A stretch of DNA of 46,896 nucleotides from a virus. The position numbers and the translations under genes are program-made. Numbering within the stretch: the stretch's first letter is position 1; each line of letters starts with the position of its first letter. The stretch is from the IMG/VR virus record IMGVR_UViG_3300050505_000211; one strand, given 5' to 3'. The notes beneath the pieces were generated by a model. That model had not been told where the DNA came from and ran no database searches. It saw nothing but the letters and a program-made list of their open reading frames with translations. Shown one piece after another: positions 1-41,626 of the stretch.

Positions 1-127
1 AGAAAGGAGCCCTGTGAGAAGAAAAACTTTTCTATCCGCAGTCGCGTTGATGTTCTTTGTCACCGGCTGTGCAGCCACGTCTCAGAACGTGAAGACTGTT
101 GTGTTGCCCACCTCGAACAAGAGCATT
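1..127. repeat. terminal overlap identical to 46770..46896 (circular-contig closure or short terminal redundancy)
   Basis: Read directly: bases 1-127 recur verbatim at 46770-46896, including the RBS and first 38 codons of the lipoprotein ORF. Confidence 0.95.
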
Positions 128-3720: not shown

Positions 3721-4118
3721 AACGCGGTTGGAACATTGGACAAGTGGTGAACACTGCAACGTGGGCAGGAAATCGAGAAGAAAGGAAACAATCTATGGGT
3801 TACGACATACCGAAAGATCATCACACGGGAGGCGCAAGCCTCCATCATTCTCAACAGTCGATAGACAGATTCACTGGCCCAAAGGATACCCGCTTTGAGA
3901 GAGCATTTGCTGAAGTGCGGGATGAGCTACAGCTAGCCACAATGAAGTTTGGAAGTTTCGCCTCGGCTCATGAGGGCTACGCCGTGCTGCTCGAAGAAGT
4001 GGACGAGCTGTGGGACGAAGTGAAGAAGAACCAAAACATCCGTTCCATTGAACATCTTCGGCAGGAAGCTAAGCAAGTGGCCGCTATGGCTCTGCGCTTT
4101 ATGATCGATCTTACGTGA
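3717..4118 (+). CDS. MazG-like all-alpha nucleoside-triphosphate pyrophosphohydrolase (putative)
   Basis: HEGYAVLLEEVDELWDEV motif typical of MazG-like NTP-PPases. ATGA overlap with the helicase stop. Confidence 0.6.
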   Translation: MKRGWNIGQVVNTATWAGNREERKQSMGYDIPKDHHTGGASLHHSQQSIDRFTGPKDTRFERAFAEVRDELQLATMKFGSFASAHEGYAVLLEEVDELWDEVKKNQNIRSIEHLRQEAKQVAAMALRFMIDLT

Positions 4119-4498
4119 AGGTAGGCCTCAAGACGTGGGTGATTTGGGCTCTCCGCAAAGCATCCTACCGCTGGCCCCCACGACAGCAAGCCCTGAGAGA
4201 TGCCGCAGCCACGAAGGAAGATTTCAAGAAGTATGGCTGTGAGAAAGTATCCAAGCTCGTTCGCAATTTCTATTGGTGCAAAAAGTGCCAAGGAGTGTTC
4301 AGCAGGAAAGGAGTGTCCATAGATCATGTGCAGCCTGTCGTAGACCCACGAGAGGGCTGGCAAGGGTTCGATGAATTTATCCGGCGAATGTTCTGTGACG
4401 CAAGTGGGTTCCAAATTCTTTGTGGCAGTTGTCACGACACGAAGACACAGCAAGAGAACAAGGTGCGAAGAGAATACCGGAAAAGGAGAACTGCGTGA
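4115..4498 (+). CDS. HNH endonuclease
   Basis: C..C...IDHV...CGSCHDTK pattern (HNH/zinc). GTGA overlap with the upstream gene. Confidence 0.8.
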   Translation: MKVGLKTWVIWALRKASYRWPPRQQALRDAAATKEDFKKYGCEKVSKLVRNFYWCKKCQGVFSRKGVSIDHVQPVVDPREGWQGFDEFIRRMFCDASGFQILCGSCHDTKTQQENKVRREYRKRRTA

Positions 4499-5789: not shown

Positions 5790-6365
5790 GTGAAGACGAT
5801 TTTATTTGATGTGGACGGTGTGCTGGCTGACTTTGTGCTTGGATTCACAAAGCTACTTACGCCGAATCCCTTTGGCACTAGAGAGAACACGTGCGCTTGG
5901 AATTTCAAAGACACATTCTCCATTATCGATATAGAAAGTGCTTGGCGTATTGTCGAGAAGAGCATTGATTGGTGGACGACTCTCAATCGACTTACTTCAC
6001 TTGACACGTTTGAACGTATCAACCGTCTGCATGATTATCACACGGTTGTATTTGGAACTCACCGCAAAGGCACTCCTTCGGCGCAAGGACAGACACATGT
6101 GTGGCTCCAAGCTCAGGGTATCGAGAATCCCAATGTAATCTGCACTAAGTATAAAGGGGAAGCCGCGAAGGTGATTCAGGCACACTACGCCATTGATGAC
6201 AAGCCTGAGAATTGCATGGCGATAAAATGGATGACTGACGACACGAAGGTGCCGACGAAGACCTACATCCTTGACTCTCTCACCAATCGTGTGACTCTTC
6301 CCAAGGCGATACGCCGAGTGCAGACAGTGGACGAGTTTTTAGATGACGTGGAGGCAGGCCGGTGA
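5790..6365 (+). CDS. HAD-family 5'(3')-deoxyribonucleotidase (NT5C-like)
   Basis: N-terminal ILFDVDGVLADF (DxDG HAD motif I, as in NT5C enzymes). Later IDDKPEN. GTG start after AAAGGA. Confidence 0.8.
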   Translation: MKTILFDVDGVLADFVLGFTKLLTPNPFGTRENTCAWNFKDTFSIIDIESAWRIVEKSIDWWTTLNRLTSLDTFERINRLHDYHTVVFGTHRKGTPSAQGQTHVWLQAQGIENPNVICTKYKGEAAKVIQAHYAIDDKPENCMAIKWMTDDTKVPTKTYILDSLTNRVTLPKAIRRVQTVDEFLDDVEAGR

Positions 6366-6509: not shown

Positions 6510-6923
6510 TTGAAGTATCGAGAGCTGTTAGAAAAGCTTGATGCTGCCCGAGTGTACCTTACTGAGGTAGCGGGCACAGTGAAAGAAGATCCGGCCCTCT
6601 TGGATCAGCTCAACGAAGCACGCACGGAGCTGAGAGCGTCATATGGCAAGACGTTGGACGCCGTGGTGGGCGAGGATAATGAGTTTGCAAAGGAGCTGCT
6701 AGAGTGGATTGCTTTGGTGCCCGTGCCTGCAACGATCGAAGACCTTGCGGCCTGTGTGCCCCAAGAGGCCGAGGACGTACGGCCTCCTCTTCCCTCGGGT
6801 TCACGCACGATAGAAAGAGCTGACGGCGAGGGACGCATGGTGGTGTTTCCACGCGAAGAGCCGTTTGTGGTAAAGGCTCCTGTGCTGGAGGAGGCAGATG
6901 AAGACACAGTGGGGAAGGATTAA
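6510..6923 (+). CDS. hypothetical acidic protein
   Basis: TTG start after AAAGGGG. The ORF fills the interval and its stop overlaps the next ATG (TAATG). Confidence 0.65.
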   Translation: MKYRELLEKLDAARVYLTEVAGTVKEDPALLDQLNEARTELRASYGKTLDAVVGEDNEFAKELLEWIALVPVPATIEDLAACVPQEAEDVRPPLPSGSRTIERADGEGRMVVFPREEPFVVKAPVLEEADEDTVGKD

Positions 6924-7465
6924 TGAGCACAATAAGAACACATCCCTTTTTGTCCCAAATAGATCATCCCCACGATTGCCAAGTGTGTGGATATGAGGAA
7001 CACGAACATGCGTTGTCGGTTAGCTCTAGCGTGGTGAAGGAGTCGAATCCGAAAGACGCCGTGGGTATTGAGAAGACGCCCTTCAGCACACTCCCCTTCC
7101 CGGTGATAGCGGAGCTAGGTGTGGCCTTGCTTGAAGGTGCGTTGAAATATGGCCGACACAACTACAGAGCTATCGGGGTGCGGGCTAGCGTGTATGTCGA
7201 TGCCACGCTCCGGCATGTGGGCAGCTTTTGGGAAGGCGAGAATGTAGACCCTGACAGCGGCCTCTCTCATGTTACAAAAGCCATCGCCTCTCTTGTTGTG
7301 CTCCGCGACGCAATGATTCGAAACAAGATGGTGGACGATAGGCCAGTTGGCACCATGGGGTTCTTTGCCAAGCTGAACGTGAAGGTGAAGGAGCTGCTGG
7401 CACGGTATCCAGAGCCCAAGGCCCCGTTCTTAGCCGACAGGGAGCCCGATCAGTACACAGAATAG
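6923..7465 (+). CDS. DUF5664-type dATP/dGTP diphosphohydrolase-like protein (MazZ-like family)
   Basis: LLEGALKYGRHNYR...ATLRHVGSFWEGENVDPDSGLSHVTKA resembles the phage DUF5664/MazZ N-terminal domain. Confidence 0.6.
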   Translation: MSTIRTHPFLSQIDHPHDCQVCGYEEHEHALSVSSSVVKESNPKDAVGIEKTPFSTLPFPVIAELGVALLEGALKYGRHNYRAIGVRASVYVDATLRHVGSFWEGENVDPDSGLSHVTKAIASLVVLRDAMIRNKMVDDRPVGTMGFFAKLNVKVKELLARYPEPKAPFLADREPDQYTE

Positions 7466-8003: not shown

Positions 8004-8227
8004 TCTGCAATATTTAACACTACTCCCGCCTCCTGCTCCAGTCGTCTGAGTCGCTTCTTTAGGTGACTCAGGTGATTGGAGCGCATCGTTTTCATCTCCT
8101 CTTTAAACTCTGCTCGAAGCGTGCGGTAGACCCAGGCTGTGAAGCCTATTGCAGTCGCCCACATTGTTCCTACAACGCCTATCAGAAATTGCATCGAGAC
8201 GTTGATGATTGTTATTTCCTGCATCAC
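7979..8227 (-). CDS. membrane protein (N-terminal TM plus coiled coil), last gene of late arm
   Basis: TM segment FLIGVVGTMWATAIGFTAWVY. ATGA overlap with the upstream 719-aa gene. Confidence 0.65.
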   Translation of the reverse strand: MMQEITIINVSMQFLIGVVGTMWATAIGFTAWVYRTLRAEFKEEMKTMRSNHLSHLKKRLRRLEQEAGVVLNIADQLEDDED

Positions 8228-17823: not shown

Positions 17824-18708
17824 TTAAAAAAACTTGCCCTTGTTGTGGAATGTGTTCGTGTTAGGCCGCGTGCTTGGAAAGATGTCCGCAGTGATTGTAG
17901 CCAAATCGTTCTTCAGCTCTTGTCGCCTGTCCATGCCGAGGTCGTATTCGGGGGCGAGACGAATCGCCAGCTTGTAGATGAAATAGTCTTCCCACCCGAG
18001 AGGAAAGTCTGGATTGTCATACTGGCTGTCGAAGTCGTACAGAGGTCTGCGAAAGTGCACAACGAGAAGATCGCCGTTTGTGTATGCCGTGGCCGTTACC
18101 CAAGTGTCCGCTTGCTCTGGAGCCGAGGTGCCTGCCCGCCAAAAGATTTTCCAGCTGGCTCCGCTTCCCGGCTTGTTCTCGGAGCTACTTGTGTGCTTCA
18201 GCACACACGTGTACAGCACGCCGCCTTGGTAGACAGTGCTGCCGGATGTGACAGAAGCTGGAGCAGGCCAAATGTATAGAGTTTGATCGCTGAGCAGACG
18301 AGAACGCTTGAGATACACACGCTCGGGAGAGCCAGTGTCAGCTTTAATGACCAGCTGGTTATACTCCTCAGACTTAATGATGCGGAGAGGGTCGCTGTCG
18401 TCGCCATTCAGATTGCGAACGACAACAGTGACAAGTTCGCGGATTGCAGGAAGGTTTTGACTCTCGCCAAAGATGTACCGCTTCGCCACAAGAGGAAGGT
18501 ACACAACGTCCAGAGCCCACAAACTCTTTGCCAAGTCTGTTTGCTTTAGATCCTCTGTGCGGACGATGTTGTTCAGAGCCCTTATGGCGTCACGAAGCCG
18601 GTGTATTGGGGGATTGCCGTCTTCCGGCCACGCTCGGCATTTACGGAGAGCCGAAGCGATTATTTCGTTCCGCGTTAAGGCATGATCAGCAGTGCTGCCA
18701 ACGCTCAT
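17824..18708 (-). CDS. head-tail adaptor / tail tubular-A-like protein with CBM5/12-like insertion
   Basis: The pattern ...SEEYN...GSPERVYL...LYIWPAP... resembles podovirus adaptor proteins. Insert VYQGGVLYTCVLKHTSSSENKPGSGASWKIFW resembles chitin-binding CBM5/12. Confidence 0.45.
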   Translation of the reverse strand: MSVGSTADHALTRNEIIASALRKCRAWPEDGNPPIHRLRDAIRALNNIVRTEDLKQTDLAKSLWALDVVYLPLVAKRYIFGESQNLPAIRELVTVVVRNLNGDDSDPLRIIKSEEYNQLVIKADTGSPERVYLKRSRLLSDQTLYIWPAPASVTSGSTVYQGGVLYTCVLKHTSSSENKPGSGASWKIFWRAGTSAPEQADTWVTATAYTNGDLLVVHFRRPLYDFDSQYDNPDFPLGWEDYFIYKLAIRLAPEYDLGMDRRQELKNDLATITADIFPSTRPNTNTFHNKGKFF

Positions 18709-18717
18709 TGTGGTTCC

Positions 18718-19086
18718 TTATGTGTAGAGAAGGGTGAGAACAACGCTCGAGGACGGATTGCTCGTTCCAGCCGTACCGCCTGCCGTCACTGTGGCCTCAG
18801 TGAGTCCTGTGTCGAACGCGATTGTCTCAGGCAGGATGATCGTCAGCTTGGTGCTCGCAGGCACCTTGAAGATCCAATCGGGAGCTGTAGTACCCACTGT
18901 GACGGAGCCAGAAGCCGCGTCGTAGAGCTTCACAAAGGAAGCTGCCACGTTCGCGCTGTTATCTATAATGAGGGCGTACAGATTACCCGAGCTGCCCTTC
19001 ACGCCACTCTTTGTGGCATTGCTGGCGGTGTTCTTATAACGAAGCAGCCCACTAGGGGCATCAAAATCTACTTGTGATATTGCCAT
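18718..19086 (-). CDS. small beta-rich virion protein
   Basis: ATG at 19086 shares 1 nt with the upstream stop (TAATG). An alternative ATG lies at 19095. Confidence 0.6.
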   Translation of the reverse strand: MAISQVDFDAPSGLLRYKNTASNATKSGVKGSSGNLYALIIDNSANVAASFVKLYDAASGSVTVGTTAPDWIFKVPASTKLTIILPETIAFDTGLTEATVTAGGTAGTSNPSSSVVLTLLYT

Positions 19087-19526
19087 TACTGCCATTCTCC
19101 TGTTTCGATTTGCTTTGATATTCTTCGGGCTCGAGCACCAACTTGAGAATGCCAAAGACCAATAAGCACTTCTTGTGATGCCTCAACAAATTTCCCTTCG
19201 GCCATAAGCGCAAGAGTTTTGGGATTCTTTATAAGCAGCCGGGGCACTCCCATGTTATAAGCCATGTTCATCAGGGCTCCCAAACGCGCTTCGTCTAATC
19301 GGCTCGCCCACGGACAACGCTGCAACAGCTCCTTCAGGTAATTGTTCCACCGAAGATTAAAGATAAGTTCTATCTCTTCTAAGGAGAACCCTTCCTTCAG
19401 ATTGAAACCAATTCCGATCGTGGGGATGTTAAGCGTGTCATAATAGATCGTCAGCTTCACATCCTCATCGCGCTTAAGCTGCTTCTCGGATTCGGCGTAG
19501 AGGTTTTTAATTTCCATGTTACGCAC
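19086..19526 (-). CDS. GH24 (T4-type) lysozyme / endolysin
   Basis: RDEDVKLTIYYDTLNIPTIGIGFN matches the T4 lysozyme E...D...T catalytic region ([21 protein letters not shown]). Confidence 0.85.
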   Translation of the reverse strand: MRNMEIKNLYAESEKQLKRDEDVKLTIYYDTLNIPTIGIGFNLKEGFSLEEIELIFNLRWNNYLKELLQRCPWASRLDEARLGALMNMAYNMGVPRLLIKNPKTLALMAEGKFVEASQEVLIGLWHSQVGARARRISKQIETGEWQ

Positions 19527-19854
19527 TCGCAGGAATCACGGTGGCCTTCTGGTCGCAGTAGACGTATATCTTGCCGTGCGTGAGAGTGCTGATGATCAAA
19601 CCCTTCACTTGGAACGAGGGCACGAAATCAGTGTAGTCTTGTGGATACGTAGGCACTCCCGTGCCGGTGGCCGTGATGCGTGCTTCCCAAATCACCTTTC
19701 CCGCCGAGTCTTTCACTACAGCTTGGTCGCCGTCTGCAATGTCGTTGTTATAGTCCACCCATCGAATGTTGGTGATGGTGAGGTAGGAACTGACGGCCAC
19801 TGTAGCAGCTGCGGTGTCGAAGATGAGAGGATTCTGGTCAATTAAGTTGGACAT
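19519..19854 (-). CDS. small beta-rich protein (virion or glycosylation-associated?)
   Basis: 111-aa ORF overlapping both neighbours, immediately downstream of the sugar cassette. Confidence 0.6.
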   Translation of the reverse strand: MSNLIDQNPLIFDTAAATVAVSSYLTITNIRWVDYNNDIADGDQAVVKDSAGKVIWEARITATGTGVPTYPQDYTDFVPSFQVKGLIISTLTHGKIYVYCDQKATVIPASA

Positions 19855-20548
19855 TTCGTTCTCCTAAATATTTGATAACGTCTCTTGCGTTGAAGTTGGG
19901 ATGCAGAGTTTCGTAAATTTCTTTCGTGAGAGCAAAGTCTTCAGCAGTGTCTACCGATAAGCTTAGCCCAGGGGCTCGAATATCTTCAGGACACTGCAGG
20001 GTCCGCACTCTCGCATTCTCAAAGGCCCACTTGTGGGGATGCTCTCGTAGATCCTTGCGGGTGAGGCTTCTATCAAGCCACTGCAGAAACCTCACATCAT
20101 AAACCTCAGCACCAAAGCCTGCCGGATAACCATTTCCCAAAACGTCACGATCAAGGTTAGTGGTGAGAAAGTTCCAAACCCCAGGATCATAACTGTGATA
20201 AGAAACGATTCGCTCAACTTCATCACGATCGGTGAACGTGTTATCCCCAGGAATCCGCACCACAACATCAGCGTCCATAATGTCAGCCCCAATGCTAAAT
20301 CTGTGTACGACATCTTCAGGATCGCCTCGGTAGTCTAAAGTTTCGATGCCCAAGTCTCGGGCTGCGCCAAGCTGAATGCCGCCGTTGCTTTCGTGCGGGA
20401 TGGCCAGGAGAATGTCGTGGAAGCAACGCATTTTCTTGATGCGGGAGAGCACGTGCCAAATCTGCGGCTTTCCGAGGATGAGCATCCCGTTCTTGCCAGG
20501 GAGCCGACAGTTGCCCATTCGGGCTTGGACAATGCACACCGTCCTCAT
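19838..20548 (-). CDS. SpsF/COG1861-type cytidylyltransferase (CMP-nonulosonate synthetase-like)
   Basis: N-terminal IVQARMGNCRLPGKN...LGKP motif of the CTP_transf_3/SpsF family. ATGA overlap with the NeuB-like gene. Confidence 0.75.
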   Translation of the reverse strand: MRTVCIVQARMGNCRLPGKNGMLILGKPQIWHVLSRIKKMRCFHDILLAIPHESNGGIQLGAARDLGIETLDYRGDPEDVVHRFSIGADIMDADVVVRIPGDNTFTDRDEVERIVSYHSYDPGVWNFLTTNLDRDVLGNGYPAGFGAEVYDVRFLQWLDRSLTRKDLREHPHKWAFENARVRTLQCPEDIRAPGLSLSVDTAEDFALTKEIYETLHPNFNARDVIKYLGERNVQLN

Positions 20549-21438
20549 TTTAGGGGCTCCTGCTGTGCGCCGGTTAGGTTATTCTGTTTGCCCCGTAGCC
20601 TCTCTATGTCTTTCTTCTCGCACTCCTGCACTCGTATCTCGTCAGATCCTCTGGCCTGCTCGAAGGCGCGGATCTCGCGCACAAGGAGCTGGAGGCCGTG
20701 AGGTTCCACACTGGCCGCTTGATCAGAACCTTTCATGCTCCGGTCCAAGGTGATGTGCCTCTCGACAACCCTAGCCCCCATAGCCACAGCACAGAGAGTA
20801 GTCCACAATCCTGATTCATGTCCGCTGTAGCCGATCGCGGCTTCAGGGAAATTGTAGTGGAGCGTGTGAAGTCTCCGTAGATGCAAATCTTCGATCTTCG
20901 CGGGATATGTGCTCGTGCAGACGAGCATGGCTATCTCGTCTGTGCCTCGGCTGAGAATGCTGTACGCCTGGTGAATCTCTTTCAACGTGCTCATGCCGGT
21001 GCTCATCACCACTGGCTTCTTAAAGCTGGCAATGCATCTAAGCAGCTCGGGGTTCGTCACAGAGGCCGAAGCCACTTTGATGAACGGAGCACCGAGAGCG
21101 TCTAGCTTGTGAGAAGCGTTGATGTCCCAAGGAGAGGCCGAAAAGAGGATGTTCCGCTTCTCGCAATGCGCAACTATCTCCTGGTAATCTTGCGGAGACA
21201 GCTCGATGCGCTGTCTATATGCAAGATAGGTCATTCTCTCTCCCCAGGGCGTGTCGCGCTCCACGTCCCATAGCTCGGGCGGAAGGCTCATGTGTGGTGT
21301 GCGGATCTGAAACTTAGCTGCGTCACAGCCTGCACCAGCGGCCACATCAATCAGCTGCTTGGCAATGTCTACGCTGCCGTTGTGGTTTATGCCGATCTCC
21401 GCGATGATGAAGGTGTGGTTTTTAGGAAACTGAAACAT
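20545..21438 (-). CDS. NeuB/PseI/LegI-family nonulosonic acid synthase, lacking C-terminal SAF domain
   Basis: IIAEIGINHNGS, AAKFQ, GYSGHE and ERHITLDRSMKGSDQAASVEP match the NeuB TIM-barrel. The protein ends at 297 aa, before the usual SAF/antifreeze-like domain. Confidence 0.85.
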   Translation of the reverse strand: MFQFPKNHTFIIAEIGINHNGSVDIAKQLIDVAAGAGCDAAKFQIRTPHMSLPPELWDVERDTPWGERMTYLAYRQRIELSPQDYQEIVAHCEKRNILFSASPWDINASHKLDALGAPFIKVASASVTNPELLRCIASFKKPVVMSTGMSTLKEIHQAYSILSRGTDEIAMLVCTSTYPAKIEDLHLRRLHTLHYNFPEAAIGYSGHESGLWTTLCAVAMGARVVERHITLDRSMKGSDQAASVEPHGLQLLVREIRAFEQARGSDEIRVQECEKKDIERLRGKQNNLTGAQQEPLK

Positions 21439-23146
21439 CTTCAGCCTCCTCGTGGAACTGACAATCCCACATGTGTTTGATCAAGCTGTCTCCGTAAAAT
21501 TCAATGCTCTTCAAGCAGCCCATGCTGTGCCCAACAGAAATCATATCGAGCGTTTGATTTGCGAAGTCGATGAAGGAAGGCGTGGTGAGCACTGTTTCGC
21601 CTTTGATCTCCACTTCACAAAAGTTCTGCGGCAATGATGGGCCGGCGATGCCATCTGCATGTGTCTGCTTCTCGCTAGAGAACATCAGGTCGAGCCCGAA
21701 GACATGAAAGTTGTTGAAGCCAAGAGACATACCCACAGGAATGGTGCTGATCGCCACACTACCCCCACTATTGATAACCCCGTCAGTGGTGTAGCCATGC
21801 TTTTGGCGCAGCTCTTTCGTCTTAATGTTGTCCTGGCTGCTAAAAACGTAGCACTTATGGTCTTTAAGCTTCTCGAAGATGCTTGGCCGCGAGACAAGAG
21901 CCAAAATGTGTGTGGTGAGAGGGTGCGGCTTTTCAAAACACACTTCTTGCTCCACAGAGCAGTCCAAGCTGATCACGTATTCCGGCACGATGCCGTGCGA
22001 CAGGAGGAATGGGTACATGCGGGCAATGCAGATGATTGGCACCTTCGTGTTGTGCAGCTCTCGAATTGCCTCAAGCTGTCCATCCACGCTTGGTCCACCC
22101 CCCACGCAAATCACATCGCCGCTACTCTTGCCCCACAGCTCTGAAAGATCGGGATACTTCATCGACAAATTCTTATCGATGTTCTCGAATAGGAGCCGGC
22201 GAGGGAATTTGCACACGCCTCGGAAACGAGGCATCTTGCGTGCTTCATCCCCACGCTTGAACAAATGGTCCGTGATGTACTCCACCCACTCTTTCGGCTT
22301 GTCCACCTGAAAGTATTCAAACTTGTTGAGCGTCCAGAACGAATCGCATTCCTCATCTGAATAGTTTTCAGTGAAGCCTAGCTCTGTCATCACATACTCC
22401 AGCGTGCGCTGGCAAAACTGGTAGGTGTGGGCGATCTGAAAATACCAATCTATGTTGTTCCGAAAGAAACCTGGTGTATAGACGTACAGATGTGCATCAG
22501 GAGCCATAATCTCCTTAATGCGCTTCACTTCATTGAGGTCAGTGAAGTGTTCGATCACGTCCTTCAGGATGATGAAATCGGCCTTCACGCCTTTCGCAAT
22601 CAGCTCGTCAATGCTGTTGACAATCGTATGACCCTGCGCACTGCCATAGAGGGCCGCATCCACATCCCACTCCACGCCATACGTCTCAGCCCCTGCTTCC
22701 TTGAAGGGCTCAAGCATGCCGCCGACAAAGCAGCCGTAGTCCACCACCACCTTTGGTGTGGGAATGTCGAAATCGGCAAGCTGCTGCTGCAGCCTTCGTC
22801 CGTTGTGGCTCTGAATCCGGTAATGCGTGAAGAAATCGCCAGTCTCATCAGCCGTGGCCCAACTAGGGGCATAGTTGATGTAGCGGTATTCGTTATTATA
22901 AAACTTTTCGTACGATTCTTTGGTCATGCGCGGATTCGCACGCATGAGAGCGCACTCATTGCAAATGACATAGCGATGCGGAATGCCATTACGCTCCAAG
23001 AGCATTAGCTCTCGGTCATCATCTGCTCCACAGAAGCACTGCGTCTCTTCCATCGGGTACTCACCCGATTGAAGCTTGTTCGTTACCGATTGAATATACG
23101 AAAGGGCAAGATGGGCTCGCCCTTTCGCATCTTTTTTGTACTTCAT
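21422..23146 (-). CDS. fusion: zinc-ribbon + class I SAM methyltransferase + Maf/DUF115 (motility-accessory-factor-like glycosyltransferase)
   Basis: CFCG...CNEC. MTase motifs VVDYGCFVGGML and DFIILKDVIEHF. C-terminal ICVGGGPSVDG...VPEYVISLDC...NSGGSVA...FGLDLMF matches the MAF_flag10/DUF115 pattern. Confidence 0.7.
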   Translation of the reverse strand: MKYKKDAKGRAHLALSYIQSVTNKLQSGEYPMEETQCFCGADDDRELMLLERNGIPHRYVICNECALMRANPRMTKESYEKFYNNEYRYINYAPSWATADETGDFFTHYRIQSHNGRRLQQQLADFDIPTPKVVVDYGCFVGGMLEPFKEAGAETYGVEWDVDAALYGSAQGHTIVNSIDELIAKGVKADFIILKDVIEHFTDLNEVKRIKEIMAPDAHLYVYTPGFFRNNIDWYFQIAHTYQFCQRTLEYVMTELGFTENYSDEECDSFWTLNKFEYFQVDKPKEWVEYITDHLFKRGDEARKMPRFRGVCKFPRRLLFENIDKNLSMKYPDLSELWGKSSGDVICVGGGPSVDGQLEAIRELHNTKVPIICIARMYPFLLSHGIVPEYVISLDCSVEQEVCFEKPHPLTTHILALVSRPSIFEKLKDHKCYVFSSQDNIKTKELRQKHGYTTDGVINSGGSVAISTIPVGMSLGFNNFHVFGLDLMFSSEKQTHADGIAGPSLPQNFCEVEIKGETVLTTPSFIDFANQTLDMISVGHSMGCLKSIEFYGDSLIKHMWDCQFHEEAEDVSVS

Positions 23147-23164: not shown

Positions 23165-23983
23165 TTACAGGGCCGTGGTGACGGTGGGGTCCAAGAGGTA
23201 GGCTACGAACAGATATCCTTTGCCTCTCGCGTTGGTGCCGGTCATCGAAGCAGTGAGAGCAACAGCTCTTGCTACGGTGAGCACGGTGGCTGTCGGAGTG
23301 AAATACTTTTTCCTGGTAAACCATCCCATGACGGTTTGCGCAGAACTGGTATCCCAATCCGCCAACTGCACACCAGCAAACTGCGTGGCAAAGATTTTGC
23401 CCGTGGTGCTGTGCACTTTGATCTGCTTGTACCCAACAGACGACACGTTCAACAGCCGCGCAAAAGCGTCGCTGTCACCCGCGATGCCGATGTTGAGCAC
23501 GTTGTTATTTGTCGCAGCGCCGACGAAGGCCGTGGTGGTTTTCACCCACACGTCTTCAACGATCATCCCCTTACGGAGAGTGAAGCCTGTGCTTCTTTGC
23601 GCAGTGCTGGAGGCGCTATCGTTGATGCCAACGATAAGCGTGTAGCGATGCTCTTCGGGGTCAACGTCCACTCGCTTTTGAGACTGAGGAACGCCTTTCA
23701 AGAAGAATGCGCGTCCGCCGTTCGTGAGAACAGAGATGTCAACGCTCGTGACGGTTTGCTGCGTGAAGAAATTGATGACTCCATCGGTCATAGTGCGAGA
23801 GACGTAATCACCAAACTGCACCGCTTGGGTGAGAGCTGTAGCCGCCGCATTGTAGATGGTCTGTCGAGTGGGCGACCCGGGCTGATACACCTGATACGAA
23901 CCGGCATCGTCGTCGATGGCTTTCTTCGTACGGGTGTTGACGAGCTGAAGATAAAATTCCTTCAGCGAAACATTAGCTGCCAT
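23165..23983 (-). CDS. Ser/Thr-rich structural protein (capsid decoration or tail component?)
   Basis: 272-aa beta-rich ORF between the capsid genes and the sugar cassette. Good RBS (GGAAAAGGAA) upstream. Confidence 0.6.
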   Translation of the reverse strand: MAANVSLKEFYLQLVNTRTKKAIDDDAGSYQVYQPGSPTRQTIYNAAATALTQAVQFGDYVSRTMTDGVINFFTQQTVTSVDISVLTNGGRAFFLKGVPQSQKRVDVDPEEHRYTLIVGINDSASSTAQRSTGFTLRKGMIVEDVWVKTTTAFVGAATNNNVLNIGIAGDSDAFARLLNVSSVGYKQIKVHSTTGKIFATQFAGVQLADWDTSSAQTVMGWFTRKKYFTPTATVLTVARAVALTASMTGTNARGKGYLFVAYLLDPTVTTAL

Positions 23984-24121: not shown

Positions 24122-24388
24122 TTACTTTTGCACCAAAGCGAGCCACATAATCACTTTATTGCTGCCGCCAGTGATCGTGAAGGTTGAACCTGATGTGGCA
24201 GAAATGTAGGTAGCTGTGGCGTCGTTCTGTGCAGTGACGAAAGCAGCAACGATCTTCTTAGCACCAGGGATGCTCACATCCTTGGTGGTGCCGGAGAGTG
24301 TCACAATACCCGTGTAGATGTCATAGGCATGTTGAGTGCCCACGTTCTCTACATGAGTGGCTGCAAGAGAAGAAATATCGAAAGCCAT
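24122..24388 (-). CDS. small beta-rich protein downstream of major capsid protein
   Basis: 88-aa ORF, RBS AAAGGAGA upstream, located in the structural operon. Confidence 0.65.
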   Translation of the reverse strand: MAFDISSLAATHVENVGTQHAYDIYTGIVTLSGTTKDVSIPGAKKIVAAFVTAQNDATATYISATSGSTFTITGGSNKVIMWLALVQK

Positions 24389-24412: not shown

Positions 24413-25456
24413 TTAGTCCGCCACAGCTGATGCGAAGACGTGGACGACGCCGTTATCCTCTTGGGTGCTACGGTTGAACACGAGCTTCTGGATGCCTCTG
24501 ATTTCGTGCAGTTCGTAAGACACGTCATGCCCGAAGTCCGAAGGCTCTTCGTTGAACTTGGTGCGCTGGCCCCAACACACTGCAAGAGCCTGCGCTCCAA
24601 ACAGCAAGTTGTGGGAAACTTGAATCGTGCTGGAGATAAGCGGGAGCCGCTCATTCTCATAAATCAGCACGCCATCCCACGCTCCCTTGAAGGCAGAGCC
24701 CGAGAAGTACACAGAGCTGGTGCCAAGAGGAGTGAGGTTCAGCTCGCGGTTTTTGAAGGCCGCGTCTTTCTCAACGAGGTCGCGAGTGCTGTAGGTTTGA
24801 GCCCAAAGCACATACCATTGCTCATACTCTTTGCCGTTGACGATGCGGGTAGGACGGATCTTCGCAGTGGCGTTCACGGGGATGATCGCTTTGCGCTTGG
24901 CAATGCTGATCATGGCACCGGAAAGCATGTCGTTGGTCGCGTCTACGTTCGTGAGAGCAGTGGCGTGCGTGGCATTGTAGTTCGAATCTGCGATGCCGTA
25001 CAAATACCGGCCTTGCACACGTCCGCTGGACACGTCGCAAGCCGCAGTGATGACATCGTTGTCGAAGTCCACTGCAAACTCATCTTCCAACGCGCTCTTG
25101 CCTTCAGTGAGGACATTGAACATAACGCGTTTCTGCGTCATGGGAACGTCTTCGAACTTGATGGCTCGGCGCACGTTGTCGATGACGATGCGCTGGTTGT
25201 AGAAGGACAGTGCACCTTCGTTGCCGATCGCCTTTGCGTTTCCTGTCACCAATCCGCCCACCACACGACCACGCATACCGATCGTGACGGCGTCACCGGC
25301 TTTCTTCACGAGATCCTCTTTCACCTGGATTATCGCGTTGGTGTCAGTGCCCATGAATTTCTTGCACTGCAACATGCCGATGTATTCTTTGTAGATACTG
25401 TCTTCCCACTGCTCGGCGGTGAGACCGTTATCAGTGAGAACTTCGATGTAAGACAT
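24413..25456 (-). CDS. major capsid protein (HK97 fold, T7/N4-gp56-like)
   Basis: 347 aa directly after the scaffold gene. N-terminal W..SIYKEY...F.G and overall pattern resemble podovirus capsid families. Strong RBS GAGGA. Confidence 0.8.
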   Translation of the reverse strand: MSYIEVLTDNGLTAEQWEDSIYKEYIGMLQCKKFMGTDTNAIIQVKEDLVKKAGDAVTIGMRGRVVGGLVTGNAKAIGNEGALSFYNQRIVIDNVRRAIKFEDVPMTQKRVMFNVLTEGKSALEDEFAVDFDNDVITAACDVSSGRVQGRYLYGIADSNYNATHATALTNVDATNDMLSGAMISIAKRKAIIPVNATAKIRPTRIVNGKEYEQWYVLWAQTYSTRDLVEKDAAFKNRELNLTPLGTSSVYFSGSAFKGAWDGVLIYENERLPLISSTIQVSHNLLFGAQALAVCWGQRTKFNEEPSDFGHDVSYELHEIRGIQKLVFNRSTQEDNGVVHVFASAVAD

Positions 25457-34594: not shown

Positions 34595-35287
34595 ATGAAG
34601 CACAAAGAGTTAATCGGGTTCAAGCCTATCAACGCACGTGACCGCAACGAGAAGCTCGGGAATATCCCATACACAACGTCAAGCGCCGAGACTTGCCCGT
34701 CAGCATGTCCACTCAAAGCAAAAGGATGCTACGCAAAGCAAGGACCCTTGTATTGGCATTGGCGCAAAGTGACTGAAGGCAAGCGTGGAATCACGTGGCA
34801 AGCGTTCTTAGATAACATCAAAGCGTTACCGGACGGCCAAGTGTGGAGGCACAATCAAGCAGGGGATTTGCCCGGTGTCGACAATGACATTGACACACAC
34901 AAGCTTGACGAAATTGTGAAAGCCAACACTGGCAAGCGTGGCTTCACATACACACACAAGCCAGTATCCAGCGCAAAGAATCGTAAAGCAATTGCTAGAG
35001 CTAATCACCTAGGCTTCACTATCAATCTCTCTGCCGACAATCTCCGCGAAGCAGACACACTGAAAGCTTTAAACATTACGCCTGTTGCTGTGGTGCTGCC
35101 TCTTGGCACGGAGAAGAAAATCAGCACACCCGCAGGCAACACAGTGATTCTATGTCCTGCGCAGTACAAAGAGAATCTCACATGCGGCAACTGCAAACTG
35201 TGTGCAATCCGCGATCGTAAAGTGATTATTGGATTTGAAGCACACGGAGCAAGCAAAAAACACGTCAGCAACCTTGTAGGAGAATAA
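34595..35287 (+). CDS. Cys-cluster protein of unknown function (possibly GP88-like), first early gene
   Basis: N-terminal TCPSACPLKAKGCYA and C-terminal CGNCKLC. 230-aa ORF at the head of the plus arm. Confidence 0.6.
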   Translation: MKHKELIGFKPINARDRNEKLGNIPYTTSSAETCPSACPLKAKGCYAKQGPLYWHWRKVTEGKRGITWQAFLDNIKALPDGQVWRHNQAGDLPGVDNDIDTHKLDEIVKANTGKRGFTYTHKPVSSAKNRKAIARANHLGFTINLSADNLREADTLKALNITPVAVVLPLGTEKKISTPAGNTVILCPAQYKENLTCGNCKLCAIRDRKVIIGFEAHGASKKHVSNLVGE

Positions 35288-39390: not shown

Positions 39391-39900
39391 ATGGGTCACT
39401 TGCATTCTGGATTAACGTACGATAAAAGCCCCTTTCAGCGTAAGGTGCTGTATTTCCAGGGAATGAAAGTTGACATAAGTCAACTCAGTATATTTTATCA
39501 GACGTTCCTGGCAGGCATGGCCCTTGCGCTGGAAGGCAGGTGCAATATGCCCAAGCGCAAAGAGCTGGAGGTGCTTCCTGTCAGTAACGCCCCCGAGTTA
39601 TCCTCCGAAGATATTTTCAGCAGCGAGAATTGGGAGATTGCCAATCTTCGCCGTCGCCTAGCAGCTGCCCACGCGGACAAGAAAACGCTCAATGACAAGC
39701 TCACGCTGTCTCTCGACTTGCTAGTATCCGAGTTGCGTATGTGGCGCTTAGGTCTGCGCGAGGGCCAATGGGAAACGATGGGACAGATACAAGCGCGGGT
39801 GGCGAAGCTTGAGGGTATGGTGAAAATGTTGCTGGAGAGTGCTCCTGGTCGGCACACGATGGTGGAAGAGCATGCGCGTCTCTTTGGAGGTGGTCGATGA
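39391..39900 (+). CDS. hypothetical coiled-coil protein upstream of recombinase
   Basis: GGAGGA RBS. ATGA overlap with the recombinase start. Confidence 0.65.
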   Translation: MGHLHSGLTYDKSPFQRKVLYFQGMKVDISQLSIFYQTFLAGMALALEGRCNMPKRKELEVLPVSNAPELSSEDIFSSENWEIANLRRRLAAAHADKKTLNDKLTLSLDLLVSELRMWRLGLREGQWETMGQIQARVAKLEGMVKMLLESAPGRHTMVEEHARLFGGGR

Positions 39901-41432: not shown

Positions 41433-41626
41433 CCTTGTTCGATCTTGTGCAGGGCATGGTGGATCAGCGTCTCCCACAGTTTGAAGGAGCTGGCATCAAG
41501 CGAGAGGGAGCGCAGGTGTCCTTTGGACGAGGGAGAGGCAAGTTCTTTCTCTGCCAAGCCCTGTACGTGGAGAAGAGAAAAAACAAAGTGGTAATCAAAA
41601 ACACACCAACCGCAGGAGGATTATGA
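41429..41626 (+). CDS. hypothetical protein (65 aa)
   Basis: ATGA overlaps on both sides. Confidence 0.55.
   Translation: MTLFDLVQGMVDQRLPQFEGAGIKREGAQVSFGRGRGKFFLCQALYVEKRKNKVVIKNTPTAGGL

What the first reader, a model, noticed from the sequence alone, without database searches (positions are those of the whole stretch)
19838..23146. Nonulosonic-acid (sialic-acid-like) synthase, cytidylyltransferase and methyltransferase-Maf fusion embedded in the virion structural operon
Seen in sequence:
- Three consecutive, overlapping minus-strand genes sit between the capsid genes (24413-25456, 23165-23983) and the lysozyme/adaptor/tail genes. They are in the same orientation and are translationally coupled (17-nt overlap at 21422-21438, ATGA at 20545-20548, 17-nt overlap at 19838-19854).
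- Gene 1 (574 aa) has a zinc ribbon and class-I SAM methyltransferase motifs (VVDYGCFVGGML, DFIILKDVIEHF). These are fused to a DUF115/MAF_flag10-like domain (ICVGGGPSVDG, VPEYVISLDC, NSGGSVA...FGLDLMF).
- Gene 2 is NeuB/PseI/LegI-like (IIAEIGINHNGS, GYSGHE, ERHITLDRSMKGSDQAASVEP).
- Gene 3 is an SpsF/CTP_transf_3-type cytidylyltransferase (IVQARMGNCRLPGKN).

Established knowledge:
- NeuB-family enzymes condense PEP with an acetamido-hexose to make nonulosonic acids.
- CTP_transf_3 enzymes make the CMP-activated sugar.
- Maf proteins are the nonulosonic-acid O-glycosyltransferases of flagellins in Campylobacter, Helicobacter, Aeromonas, Geobacillus and Magnetospirillum.

Inference: the phage carries the last three steps (synthesis, activation, transfer, plus a possible methylation) and expresses them with late genes. 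This suggests it decorates its own virion proteins with a sialic-acid-like sugar, for example for host mimicry, adhesion or protection. Alternatively it remodels a host surface protein late in infection. I am not aware of an experimentally characterised phage Maf-type system.
Basis: partly seen in the sequence, partly recalled or inferred. Interest (0 to 1): 0.92.

Follow-up and report, generated by a model that had tools for sequence, protein, structure and literature searches.

The report
Phage sialic-acid-like capsid glycosylation cassette
An uncultured phage carries, right next to its capsid-decoration gene, three enzymes that make, activate and transfer (and probably methylate) a sialic-acid-like sugar; the transfer enzyme belongs to a family so far known only from bacterial flagella, so the phage probably sugar-coats its own particle.

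Summary
Three overlapping minus-strand genes encode:
- a 574-aa fusion of a zinc ribbon, a class-I methyltransferase and a Maf/PF01973 domain;
- a 297-aa NeuB synthase that keeps its catalytic residues but has no SAF domain;
- a 236-aa SpsF-type cytidylyltransferase.

The window is a complete phage genome of about 46.8 kb. No other sugar-pathway gene turned up among the ORFs scanned.

New context:
- The fusion defines a family of at least 120 sequence clusters in one clade of uncultured 44-50 kb podovirus-like phages.
- In 34 of 35 distinct loci it directly follows a homologue of the 272-aa protein at 23165-23983. That protein's model resembles capsid cement proteins.
- NeuB and the cytidylyltransferase move around or are not seen.
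- Relatives without the cassette go straight from this protein to lysozyme or adaptor.
- An unrelated Mx8-like lineage also places Maf genes just after its capsid gene.
- The methyltransferase half resembles NDP-sugar methyltransferases, and its stand-alone bacterial homologues sit in NeuB cassettes.
- The nearest cellular NeuB homologues are SAF-less Streptomyces enzymes, which hints at a Kdn-type sugar.

No Maf-like gene was found in 50,697 GenBank phages, PHROGs or the papers searched. Virion self-glycosylation is the best explanation but is unproven.

The parts
21422..23146 (-). 574-aa fusion protein: zinc ribbon + class-I SAM methyltransferase + minimal Maf (PF01973) glycosyltransferase domain
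   Evidence: Pfam and NCBIfam hits. AlphaFold2 model with pLDDT 91 and pTM 0.85. Foldseek matches to sugar methyltransferases and to Maf 5MU5. Family of at least 120 clusters.
22952..23038 (-). Zinc ribbon, residues 37-65 (C37, C39, C62, C65)
   Evidence: The four cysteines are invariant in 47 homologues. The model shows beta strands at residues 44-70. The same N-terminal zinc-domain-plus-methyltransferase layout is found in MtmC, TcaB9 and KijD1, the best Foldseek matches.
22328..22840 (-). Class-I SAM methyltransferase domain, residues about 103-273
   Evidence: Methyltransf_23, E 2.8e-11. Foldseek match to MtmC 4rv9, E 8e-14. Stand-alone homologues lie in NeuB/CTP cassettes L011, L013 and L016.
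21467..22201 (-). Maf/PF01973 domain, residues about 316-560
   Evidence: PF01973, E 1.5e-25. The A1 profile matches Maf 5MU5 at E 2.5e-10. Foldseek gives 5mu5 E 3.9e-10 against MptE kinase 8sd5 E 2.5e-6.
20545..21438 (-). NeuB-family nonulosonic-acid synthase, 297 aa, without SAF domain
   Evidence: PF03102, E 2.7e-73. Residues E14, K42, H207, E226 and H228 align with N. meningitidis NeuB E25, K53, H215, E234 and H236. The nearest cellular homologues are Streptomyces proteins at 52-55% identity.
19838..20548 (-). SpsF-type (CTP_transf_3) cytidylyltransferase, 236 aa
   Evidence: PF02348, E 1.1e-11. PDB 6OEW matches over the full length, E 4.5e-14.
23165..23983 (-). 272-aa two-domain capsid cement/decoration-like protein; the leading candidate acceptor
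   Evidence: AlphaFold2 model with pLDDT 86. Foldseek probability 0.99 to the cement proteins of cyanophage Pam1 (7eel_H) and KHP30 (7dn2_1), though with weak E-values. Many 130-170 aa phage proteins match in BFVD. A homologue lies directly upstream of the transferase gene in 34 of 35 loci.
24122..24388 (-). 88-aa Ser/Thr-rich (24%) protein between the capsid and cement-like genes; possible second decoration protein or acceptor
   Evidence: ORF and composition. An ORF of 85-111 aa is called in the same position in relatives. No family hit.
24413..25456 (-). Major capsid protein
   Evidence: Phage_capsid_3, E 1e-22, and phrog_334, E 5.7e-43. 26-34% identity to the capsid proteins of Pam1, Pan3 and CBW1004C-Prop1.
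19519..19854 (-). 111-aa ORF translationally coupled to the cytidylyltransferase gene; not specific to the cassette
   Evidence: Homologues lie elsewhere in L091/L092 and occur in the Maf-less loci L128 and L132.
19086..19526 (-). Phage lysozyme; marks the downstream border of the insertion slot
   Evidence: PF00959 and phrog_7. In the Maf-less relative L128 the lysozyme directly follows the p272 homologue.

Best explanation
The cassette is a self-contained pathway, located in the structural (presumably late) gene block, that the phage probably uses to O-glycosylate its own particle with a methylated nonulosonic (sialic-acid-like) sugar.

Proposed steps:
1. The SAF-less NeuB condenses phosphoenolpyruvate with a host-supplied hexose to give a nine-carbon 2-keto-3-deoxy acid. 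A Kdn-type sugar made from mannose or mannose-6-phosphate is the leading guess. Other donors are not excluded.
2. The SpsF-type cytidylyltransferase makes the CMP-sugar.
3. The methyltransferase half of the 574-aa protein methylates the sugar.
4. The minimal Maf domain of the same protein transfers the sugar in the host cytoplasm to Ser/Thr of a phage structural protein. The most likely acceptor is the cement/decoration-like 272-aa protein encoded immediately upstream. The 88-aa protein, the major capsid protein and tail proteins are alternatives.

Shown: the gene identities, the conserved catalytic motifs, the folds, the gene order across relatives, and that the genome is complete.
Inferred: the identity of the sugar, what is methylated, the acceptor, late expression, and any benefit to the phage. 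Possible benefits are surface charge or colloidal stability, shielding of capsid proteins from proteases or from host sensors, or adhesion.
For: - Enzyme identities rest on Pfam, NCBIfam and PDB matches.
- The fusion model is confident (pLDDT 91). Its N-terminal half best matches the zinc-ribbon NDP-sugar methyltransferases MtmC, KijD1 and TcaB9. Its C-terminal half matches Maf 5MU5.
- Both domains keep invariant motif residues across 47 homologues of 33-72% identity.
- The window has an exact 127-bp terminal repeat, so it is a complete genome. Pfam scans of 30 ORFs found no other sugar gene.
- In 34 of 35 distinct loci the transferase gene starts within 300 nt of the end of a p272 homologue, which follows the capsid gene. 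In L142 the two genes overlap by 4 nt.
- NeuB and the cytidylyltransferase gene are relocated in some relatives and not seen in others.
- Clade members without the cassette go from the p272 homologue straight to lysozyme or adaptor.
- The p272 model contains a cement-protein-like jelly roll. Pam1 has its cement gene in the same slot.
- Mx8-like phages (L194, L196) place stand-alone Maf genes directly after the capsid gene and a 169/176-aa virion protein. Their capsid protein shows no detectable similarity to the window's (hhalign probability 0.2).
- The closest stand-alone homologues of the methyltransferase lie beside NeuB, CTP_transf_3 and a phosphatase in bacterial MAG contigs.
- The nearest cellular NeuB homologues are SAF-less Streptomyces enzymes. 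One sits in a cluster with a CTP_transf_3-HAD fusion and a polysialyltransferase-like gene.
- Streptomyces walls carry Kdn polymers that are often methylated (PMC11481543).
- The consensus scan found no more promoter- or terminator-like sites in the minus-strand structural block than in shuffled sequence, and none convincing inside the cassette.
Against: - There is no biochemical or proteomic evidence, and the phage is uncultured.
- Every characterised Maf acts on flagellin.
- Conserved adjacency within one clade could be inherited gene order rather than functional linkage. The second lineage is represented by only two contigs.
- Several Maf-carrying relatives show no NeuB or cytidylyltransferase gene in the 20 kb retrieved (L006/L007, L105, L108/L109). 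They would depend on host CMP-sugar.
- The test for Ser/Thr sites specific to Maf-carrying phages gave only a weak signal in p272, namely the loop at about residues 244-250 and position 183. It gave none in the capsid protein.
- The p272-to-cement link is structural only. hhalign probability is 0.4 and the Foldseek E-values are about 0.03.
- NeuB lacks the SAF domain, and so Arg314, and has Ser at the position of N. meningitidis Glu134. Its activity and substrate are therefore unverified.
- Calling the Streptomyces cluster a Kdn cluster rests on my recollection of Ostash et al. 2014. It was not tested here.
Confidence: 0.55

Rival explanations
1. The cassette remodels a host surface protein late in infection. 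Candidates are flagellin, pilin, an S-layer protein or another phage receptor. The purpose would be to block superinfection or to stop progeny re-adsorbing to lysing cells. The Maf domain would then act on its classical type of substrate.
For: All characterised Maf enzymes glycosylate flagellins. Phage glycosyltransferases that alter host serotype are well known (PMC12619734). Nothing shown here rules out a host acceptor.
Against: - The gene lies in the head-gene block, directly after the cement-like gene, in 34 of 35 loci. It takes the same place in a second phage lineage. Superinfection-exclusion genes are usually early or lysogeny-associated.
- The phage protein lacks the N- and C-terminal domains that flank the catalytic domain in flagellar Mafs.
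- A scan of GTDB representative genomes found no full-length relative. That scan was seeded from the methyltransferase half only.
- A flagellated host is not established.
Confidence: 0.2
2. The Maf-like domain is not a protein glycosyltransferase. It would transfer the sugar to a glycan, a lipid or a small molecule, or the cassette would mainly supply a CMP-sugar to host enzymes as an auxiliary metabolic function.
For: PF01973 is a broad family, and most members are uncharacterised. The exhaustive search found 1905 relatives at E <= 0.001, many of them stand-alone proteins of about 270 aa. NeuB genes occur sporadically in other viral genomes with no evident acceptor.
Against: The transferase gene, not the synthase genes, is the positionally conserved element beside the capsid genes. 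The motifs shared with the solved Maf are conserved.
Confidence: 0.12
3. The sugar is attached to phage DNA as a hypermodification that protects against restriction.
For: [quoted passage not shown] The genome also encodes a MazZ-like dNTP diphosphohydrolase and an NT5C nucleotidase.
Against: The cassette lies in the structural operon, far from the replication and nucleotide genes. No hydroxymethylase or kinase partner was found in the ORFs scanned. I know of no nonulosonic-acid DNA modification (own knowledge).
Confidence: 0.04
4. The C-terminal domain is an MptE-type 6-hydroxymethylpterin diphosphokinase, and the fusion acts in pterin or folate metabolism.
For: Pfam now names PF01973 after MptE. 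Foldseek also matches the M. jannaschii HPPK 8sd5 at E 2.5e-6.
Against: Maf 5MU5 is the better match by both structure (3.9e-10) and family profile (2.5e-10), and 8sd5 does not appear among the 60 PDB chains listed. The only NCBIfam hit is the flagellin-modification protein PseD. The neighbouring genes are NeuB and a cytidylyltransferase, not folate genes.
Confidence: 0.02

Closest known systems
Maf (motility accessory factor) flagellin nonulosonic-acid O-glycosyltransferases: Campylobacter PseD/PseE/Maf, Aeromonas Maf1, Magnetospirillum Maf (PDB 5MU5), Clostridium botulinum and Geobacillus Maf
   Same: Both have the PF01973 catalytic domain with shared GxGPS and FG(V/L)D motifs. Both are cytoplasmic enzymes. 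In both, the genes are linked to NeuB-family synthase and CMP-sugar synthetase genes.
   Different: - The phage enzyme has no flagellar context.
- It lacks the degenerate Rossmann N-domain and the helical C-domain of Maf. A zinc-ribbon methyltransferase is fused N-terminally instead.
- It scores far below the PseD equivalog cut-off (48 against 670 bits).
- The proposed acceptor is a capsid protein.
Mycobacteriophage virion glycosylation (Freeman et al. 2023, Cell Host Microbe; as cited in PMC12619734)
   Same: Phage-encoded enzymes glycosylate the phage's own capsid and tail proteins in the host cytoplasm.
   Different: As far as I recall, those systems use conventional glycosyltransferases and hexose-type glycans at the C-termini of capsid and tail-tube subunits in actinobacteriophages. 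Here the system would be a Maf-type transferase with a phage-made CMP-nonulosonic acid and a fused methyltransferase. It is so far only predicted.
Zinc-ribbon NDP-sugar C-3 methyltransferases TcaB9, MtmC and KijD1
   Same: These are the best structural matches to residues 1-300. They share the four-cysteine zinc domain followed by a class-I SAM domain.
   Different: Those enzymes act on dTDP-4-keto-6-deoxyhexoses in antibiotic pathways and have their own C-terminal sugar-binding domain. Here that place is taken by the Maf domain. The substrate would be a nonulosonic acid or its CMP derivative. Whether methylation is on carbon, oxygen or nitrogen is unknown.
SAF-less 'environmental' NeuB subgroup, including Streptomyces enzymes in Kdn-teichulosonic-acid-like clusters, and Leptospira 6NCS
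   Same: - The length is 280-320 aa with no SAF domain.
- W replaces N. meningitidis F112 in the window protein, and this W is invariant in the 13 SAF-less sequences aligned.
- Ser is at the N. meningitidis E134 position in 11 of the 13 aligned sequences, including all the Streptomyces ones.
- The LPPELWDVERDTPWG insert is shared with the Streptomyces enzymes.
- Identity to Streptomyces proteins is 52-55%.
   Different: The Streptomyces cluster uses a NeuA-type cytidylyltransferase fused to a HAD phosphatase, plus polysialyltransferase-like and GT2 enzymes. Only NeuB is shared with the phage. The sugar made by the phage enzyme is untested.
Virus-encoded capsid glycosylation in giant viruses (chloroviruses, mimiviruses)
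   Same: The virus carries its own sugar-nucleotide synthesis and transferases to decorate its particle (own knowledge).
   Different: Those are eukaryotic viruses with different enzymes and sugars. They show no homology to this cassette beyond general sugar-nucleotide logic.

Membership tests
NeuB / nonulosonic-acid synthase (PF03102) | TIM-barrel NeuB domain scoring above the family threshold | tested here: met
   PF03102 scores 246.8 bits against a cut-off of 22.1. PDB NeuB and PseI match at E 1e-35 to 1e-38.
NeuB / nonulosonic-acid synthase (PF03102) | Metal ligands and catalytic residues (N. meningitidis E25, K53, H215, E234, H236) | tested here: met
   These align to E14, K42, H207, E226 and H228. 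All five are invariant in the phage and Streptomyces homologues.
NeuB / nonulosonic-acid synthase (PF03102) | C-terminal SAF/antifreeze-like domain that contributes Arg314, and Glu134 in the sugar pocket (canonical Neu5Ac synthase) | tested here: not met
   There is no PF08666 hit, and the protein ends at TIGR03569 position 273 of 329. Ser126 replaces E134. The scores are below the NeuB_NnaB and PseI equivalog cut-offs (256 against 400, and 206 against 340). This fits the known SAF-less environmental subgroup.
CMP-sugar synthetase (CTP_transf_3, PF02348) | Cytidylyltransferase fold with the N-terminal nucleotide-binding motif | tested here: met
   PF02348 scores 45.4 bits against a cut-off of 22.6. 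The match to 6OEW covers the full length at E 4.5e-14.
CMP-sugar synthetase (CTP_transf_3, PF02348) | Specificity for a nonulosonic acid (NeuA/PseF/LegF equivalog) | tested here: inconclusive
   All NCBIfam equivalogs score far below their cut-offs. PseF scores 19.5 against 205.7, and the KdsB models 22-47 against 155-281.
Maf flagellin glycosyltransferases (PF01973 Maf_flag10) | PF01973 domain with conserved motifs, closer to Maf than to the MptE kinase | tested here: met
   PF01973 scores 90.4 bits against a cut-off of 34.6. The family profile matches 5MU5 at E 2.5e-10. Foldseek gives 5mu5 3.9e-10 against 8sd5 2.5e-6.
Maf flagellin glycosyltransferases (PF01973 Maf_flag10) | Three-domain architecture: degenerate Rossmann N-domain, central catalytic domain, helical C-domain | tested here: not met
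   The N-terminal part is a zinc ribbon plus an intact SAM methyltransferase, and the protein ends soon after the catalytic domain. The Maf architecture is as described in PMC11339370.
Maf flagellin glycosyltransferases (PF01973 Maf_flag10) | Flagellin as acceptor, or a flagellar gene neighbourhood | tested here: not met
   The neighbourhood is phage capsid, cement-like and lysozyme genes. No flagellar gene was found in the complete genome.
Maf flagellin glycosyltransferases (PF01973 Maf_flag10) | Transfer of a CMP-nonulosonic acid to Ser/Thr | not testable with these tools
   This needs enzyme assays or mass spectrometry.
TcaB9/MtmC-type sugar methyltransferases | N-terminal four-cysteine zinc domain followed by a class-I SAM domain | tested here: met
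   C37, C39, C62 and C65 are invariant. These enzymes are the top Foldseek matches, E 8e-14 to 1e-9. The family profile matches 4rv9 and TcaB9.
TcaB9/MtmC-type sugar methyltransferases | Own C-terminal NDP-sugar-binding domain and a dTDP-4-keto-sugar substrate | tested here: inconclusive
   The region after the SAM domain is the Maf domain instead. The substrate cannot be tested. Stand-alone homologues lie beside NeuB and CTP genes, which supports a link to the nonulosonic-acid pathway.
Phage capsid cement/decoration proteins (candidate acceptor, 23165-23983) | Jelly-roll fold like the Pam1 and KHP30 cement proteins, and a gene position directly after the capsid gene | tested here: inconclusive
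   Foldseek probability is 0.99 but E is about 0.03 and TM (target) 0.55. BFVD matches have E 3e-5 and higher. The sequence profile is not significant. The position matches that of Pam1 gp6.

The most novel reading that the evidence does not exclude
A widespread clade of uncultured phages, found partly in samples whose names point to groundwater, and at least one unrelated Mx8-like lineage coat their capsids with a methylated sialic-acid-like sugar (possibly Kdn). The sugar is made from central metabolites by two phage enzymes. A Maf-type transferase fused to a sugar methyltransferase attaches it to a cement/decoration protein. This would be the first non-flagellin Maf substrate and the first phage particle decorated with a nonulosonic acid.
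Probability: 0.45. Interest if true: 0.88.

Novelty: new variant of a known kind. Interest (0 to 1): 0.78.

Why it matters
- **A new acceptor class for Maf.** It would take Maf-type O-glycosylation, known only from flagellins, to viral capsids.
- **A new virion chemistry.** It would show that phages can carry acidic, sialic-acid-like sugars on their particles. This chemistry differs from the one experimentally shown case I found cited, mycobacteriophage virion glycosylation.
- **A compact, portable system.** Three genes cover synthase, activator and a methyltransferase-transferase fusion, and the acceptor is encoded next door. Co-expression in E. coli could test Maf acceptor rules, the specificity of SAF-less NeuB enzymes, and nonulosonic-acid methylation. 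It could also serve for glyco-engineering of protein nanoparticles.
- **Ecology.** A negatively charged glycan coat could change phage adsorption to particles, phage persistence, and recognition by host defence sensors that detect capsid proteins.

Tried and rejected
- **Nucleotide search.** A megablast of the region against 50,697 GenBank phages found nothing.
- **Protein searches of GenBank phages.** tblastn with the fusion, with its Maf half, and with an Mx8-lineage Maf found nothing. No isolate is available for comparison.
- **PHROGs.** The three enzymes, p272 and p88 have no PHROG family.
- **Bacterial genome scan.** The GTDB scan used only a methyltransferase motif as its seed. It returned methyltransferase-only relatives and no host clue. 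Absence of the full fusion in bacteria is therefore only weakly supported.
- **Sequence link from p272 to the Pam1 cement protein.** Not significant (hhalign probability 0.4). The link is structural only.
- **Ser/Thr-site correlation, first pass.** Several conserved Ser/Thr residues in p272 loops appeared to be missing from Maf-less relatives.
- **Ser/Thr-site correlation, repeated.** With verified and equally divergent Maf-carrying loci, most of these disappeared. Only the loop at about 244-250 and position 183 remained. The capsid protein showed no such site. I therefore treat this as weak evidence.
- **Ser/Thr richness.** p88 (24%) and p272 (20%) are Ser/Thr-rich, but several tail proteins are too, so this is not distinctive.
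- **Regulatory and RNA elements.** The promoter/terminator scan, Rfam, tRNA and repeat searches found nothing that marks the cassette as a separate transcription unit or a mobile element. GC content matches the rest of the genome.
- **PADLOC.** Only a generic methyltransferase hit.
- **Literature.** Searches for phage Maf, phage nonulosonic-acid synthesis and virion glycosylation found no description of such a system.
- **p111.** The 111-aa ORF is rejected as part of the cassette, because it also occurs in Maf-less relatives and at other positions.

Full report

Yes. The ORF list shows three consecutive minus-strand ORFs at 21422-23146 (574 aa), 20545-21438 (297 aa) and 19838-20548 (236 aa). 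The overlaps are exactly as stated: 17 nt, the 4-nt ATGA, and 17 nt with the next ORF. Each start codon has a Shine-Dalgarno-like GGAG/AGGAGG inside the end of the preceding gene.

- The first protein hits Methyltransf_23 (residues 117-259, E 2.8e-11) and PF01973 (residues 319-491, E 1.5e-25). PF01973 is the former MAF_flag10/DUF115 family, now named MptE-like.
- The second protein hits NeuB (E 2.7e-73).
- The third hits CTP_transf_3 (E 1.1e-11).
- NCBIfam adds a PseD flagellin-modification domain hit for the first protein. It also shows that NeuB stops at position 273 of the 329-position NeuB model, so it has no SAF domain.
- The flanking genes are the major capsid protein (24413-25456) and a lysozyme (19086-19526). 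Portal and large terminase lie further upstream, and tail or virion proteins downstream.

**2. What is the genome?**

The window carries an exact 127-bp direct repeat at its two ends. It is therefore a complete, circularly assembled genome of about 46.77 kb.

- It encodes a family-A DNA polymerase, a DnaB-like helicase, a ligase, a P22-type portal and a large terminase.
- It has no tRNA and no Rfam match.
- Its capsid protein is 26-34% identical to those of the short-tailed cyanophages Pam1 and Pan3 and of a prophage named CBW1004C-Prop1.
- Pfam scans of 30 ORFs found no further sugar-pathway enzyme. The phage therefore supplies only the synthase, the activating enzyme and the transferase/methyltransferase.
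- GC content across the cassette is the same as elsewhere.
- No repeats or mobile-element signatures flank it.
- The consensus scan found no more promoter- or terminator-like sites than in shuffled sequence, and none convincing inside the cassette. The only strong hairpin, with a 20-pair stem, lies at 8035-8082, where the two gene arms converge.

**3. The 574-aa protein**

An AlphaFold2 model built on 47 homologues is confident (mean pLDDT 91, pTM 0.85).

- Foldseek against the PDB gives, for the N-terminal half, the zinc-ribbon NDP-sugar C-3 methyltransferases as the best matches: MtmC (E 8e-14), KijD1 and TcaB9.
- For the C-terminal half it gives the Magnetospirillum Maf glycosyltransferase 5MU5 (E 3.9e-10). 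The archaeal MptE pterin kinase 8sd5 is weaker (E 2.5e-6).
- A sequence profile of the family also finds 5MU5 (E 2.5e-10) and MtmC/TcaB9.
- The four zinc-ribbon cysteines, the SAM-binding glycines with the EH motif, and the Maf motifs (GGPS, D395, FG-D) are invariant across homologues of 33-72% identity. Both halves therefore appear to be under selection as active enzymes.
- The protein lacks the degenerate Rossmann N-domain and the helical C-domain that flank the catalytic domain in flagellar Mafs (PMC11339370).

**4. What does the methyltransferase act on?**

The closest stand-alone homologues of residues about 18-274 occur on bacterial MAG contigs. The three best with usable neighbours lie inside nonulosonic-acid-type cassettes:

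- L013: SAF-less NeuB, methyltransferase, CTP_transf_3, HAD phosphatase, ABC exporter.
- L016: epimerase, CTP_transf_3, class-IV aminotransferase, SAF-less NeuB, radical-SAM/SPASM, methyltransferase, UDP-glucose dehydrogenase, GT4.
- L011: aminotransferase, methyltransferase, CTP_transf_3-GT28C fusion, NeuB.

A distant phage relative (L004) carries NeuB, the same aminotransferase type, a SPASM protein and CTP_transf_3 next to its terminase. Together with the structural match to sugar methyltransferases, this points to methylation of the sugar rather than of a protein.

**5. NeuB and the cytidylyltransferase**

- NeuB residues E14, K42, H207, E226 and H228 align with the N. meningitidis catalytic and metal-binding residues E25, K53, H215, E234 and H236.
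- It differs from the canonical enzyme in three ways: the SAF domain (and so Arg314) is missing, Trp replaces F112, and Ser replaces E134.
- SAF-less NeuB proteins are a recognised environmental subgroup (PMC8208679).
- Outside the phage clade, the nearest named relatives are 300-320 aa Streptomyces proteins at 52-55% identity. They share the Ser and a 13-residue insert with the phage enzyme.
- One of them lies in a cluster with a CTP_transf_3-HAD phosphatase fusion, a polysialyltransferase-like protein and a GT2.
- Streptomyces cell walls carry teichulosonic acid, a polymer of galactose and the sialic acid Kdn that is often methylated (PMC11481543).
- From memory, such a cluster (SCO4879-4882) was implicated in Kdn polymer synthesis. 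I could not verify the equivalence here.
- If the phage enzyme makes Kdn from mannose or mannose-6-phosphate and PEP, no further precursor genes are needed. That would explain the minimal gene set. This is an inference, and I give it about 30% probability.
- The cytidylyltransferase is of the SpsF type. Its best solved relative is a Leptospira enzyme (6OEW). It is unrelated to the Streptomyces NeuA-type enzyme.

**6. Comparative context, the main new evidence**

The fusion protein has at least 120 relatives (90%-identity clusters) with the same two-domain architecture. Many are on contigs of 44-50 kb. I retrieved loci by exact look-up and by scans of viral contigs and mapped the window's proteins onto them.

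- In 34 of 35 distinct loci with enough upstream sequence, the transferase gene starts within 300 nt of the end of a homologue of the 272-aa protein at 23165-23983. That homologue in turn follows the capsid gene, and an ORF of 85-111 aa is called between the two in the look-up loci. In the 35th locus the gap is 584 nt.
- NeuB and the cytidylyltransferase gene lie directly downstream in the closer relatives. They sit several kb upstream of the capsid gene, near the terminase/portal genes where the neighbourhood was read (L004, L008), in L004, L008, L101, L104, L107 and L111. They were not seen in the retrieved 20 kb of L006/L007, L105 and L108/L109.
- Some relatives carry a second Maf domain gene (L095, L195). 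Others carry a Maf domain without the methyltransferase (L133, L142). In L142 it overlaps the stop codon of the p272 homologue by 4 nt.
- Clade members without any Maf gene (L128, L140/L141, L159-L162) keep the p272 homologue. In the two examined it is followed directly by lysozyme (L128) or adaptor (L161).

The cassette is therefore an accessory module occupying one precise slot between the head-decoration gene and the lysis/neck genes.

**7. The 272-aa neighbour**

- Its AlphaFold2 model (pLDDT 86) is all-beta.
- Foldseek gives weak E-values overall. It singles out, at probability 0.99, the cement proteins of cyanophage Pam1 (7eel_H) and Helicobacter phage KHP30 (7dn2_1).
- It also matches many 130-170 aa phage proteins in BFVD.
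- Pam1 has its cement gene in the same position after the capsid gene.
- Sequence-profile comparison with the Pam1 cement protein is not significant.
- I read the protein as a cement-like jelly roll with an extra N-terminal beta domain, exposed on the capsid surface. That makes it a plausible acceptor, but I could not test this directly.

**8. A second, independent lineage**

An exhaustive HMMER search with the Maf half found 1905 relatives at E <= 0.001. The closest are fusion proteins and stand-alone proteins of about 270 aa.

- Two stand-alone examples lie on phage contigs (L194, L196) whose capsid protein belongs to the Mx8/Brucella-phage type (phrog_9953, E 1e-108). It is 46-56% identical to the capsid proteins of Bradyrhizobium, Stenotrophomonas and Myxococcus phages.
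- That capsid protein has no detectable similarity to the window's capsid family (hhalign probability 0.2).
- There too the order is capsid gene, a 169/176-aa virion protein, one or two Maf genes, then (in L196) the adaptor.
- This repeats the arrangement in a different capsid lineage. It argues for a functional link between phage Maf genes and head proteins, although only two contigs support it.

**9. Tests that weakened or failed to add support**

- A comparison of conserved Ser/Thr positions in p272 between Maf-carrying and Maf-less phages first looked striking.
- Once verified, equally divergent Maf-carrying loci were used, only a loop at about residues 244-250 (absent from the four Maf-less proteins) and position 183 remained.
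- The capsid protein has no Ser/Thr position specific to Maf-carrying phages.
- Ser/Thr richness of p88 and p272 is shared with tail proteins.

**10. Novelty**

- tblastn of the fusion, of its Maf half and of an Mx8-lineage Maf against 50,697 GenBank phage records found nothing.
- None of the three enzymes has a PHROG family.
- NeuB homologues occur in only three records of that collection.
- Full-text searches for phage Maf, phage nonulosonic-acid synthesis and virion glycosylation found no description of such a system.
- The experimentally shown precedent for phage self-glycosylation that these searches turned up is the mycobacteriophage work of Freeman et al. 2023 (cited in PMC12619734).
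- The paper on C. botulinum Maf lists non-flagellin substrates as future work.

**11. Verdict**

The gene identifications are secure (about 95%). The best explanation is phage-directed O-glycosylation of its own virion with a probably methylated nonulosonic acid, most likely on the cement-like protein next door. I give the virion model about 55%, this particular acceptor about 35-40%, and Kdn about 30%.

The rivals are:
- remodelling of a host surface protein (20%);
- a non-protein acceptor or plain CMP-sugar supply (12%);
- DNA hypermodification (4%);
- a pterin kinase role (2%).

I class it as a new variant of known kinds (Maf glycosyltransferases and phage virion glycosylation) and rate the interest at 0.78.

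Noticed in passing
window 1-127 and 46770-46896: An exact 127-bp direct repeat at the two ends of the window. This indicates a circularly closed assembly, so the window is a complete phage genome of about 46.77 kb.
   Followed up: yes
window 6923-7465 (+) and 5790-6365 (+): A MazZ-like dATP/dGTP diphosphohydrolase domain (PF18909, E 3.6e-24) lies next to an NT5C/HAD nucleotidase. This could point to a modified-base (for example 2-aminoadenine) or dNTP-pool manipulation pathway. No PurZ-like gene was seen among the ORFs scanned.
   Followed up: partly
window 41623-42066 (+): A 147-aa phage ORF ends in a PEP-CTERM sorting motif (PF07589, E 4.5e-4, at the gathering score). This is unusual in a phage. 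It may hint at a Gram-negative host with an exosortase system.
   Followed up: no
window 34595-35287 (+): A very strong match to DUF7227 (E 1.5e-90), with a weak match to the GP88 family. Function unknown.
   Followed up: no
window 8035-8082: A 20-pair hairpin followed by a T-rich tail lies where the plus-strand (replication) and minus-strand (structural) gene arms converge. It is probably a bidirectional terminator.
   Followed up: no
window 26515-26820 (-), 4115-4498 (+), 39897-40589 (+): An HNH-like ORF sits between the putative scaffold gene and the portal gene (sequence motifs). A second ORF gives a weak HNH hit. A small serine recombinase of the resolvase family is also present (E 1e-18).
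   Followed up: no
L095 7778-8578; L195 10001-10822: Some clade members carry a second, stand-alone Maf-domain gene right after the fusion gene. This recalls the multiple maf paralogues of Campylobacter. It may mean more than one acceptor or donor.
   Followed up: partly
L142 8139-8957; L133 7240-8007: Clade members whose Maf domain lacks the methyltransferase half. In L142 the gene overlaps the stop codon of the p272 homologue by 4 nt. The two halves of the fusion are therefore separable modules.
   Followed up: partly
L194 6451-9791; L196 5166-7592: Mx8-like phage contigs with the order capsid gene, 169/176-aa virion protein, one or two stand-alone Maf genes. No NeuB or cytidylyltransferase gene lies in the 16.8 kb read from L194.
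   Followed up: partly
L004 1-2493; L016 1417-5897; L011 94-4512: A recurring gene set occurs in a phage relative and in Saccharibacteria and other MAG contigs: NeuB, class-IV aminotransferase, radical-SAM/SPASM protein, CTP_transf_3 and the zinc-ribbon methyltransferase. It may be an undescribed pathway for a modified nonulosonic acid.
   Followed up: partly
L010 7065-7595 (Phage CBW1004C-Prop1 gp47); L009 9000-9419 (Pam1 gp11); L196 10640-11065: Related phages carry other annotated modification enzymes within their structural modules. A 'sulfotransferase family 2' gene lies directly after the capsid gene of CBW1004C-Prop1, and acetyltransferases occur in Pam1 and L196. The annotations were not checked.
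   Followed up: no
window 17824-18708 (-) and L128 9598-10461: A 294-aa structural protein and its counterpart in a relative give faint, sub-threshold CBM_5_12 carbohydrate-binding hits.
   Followed up: no
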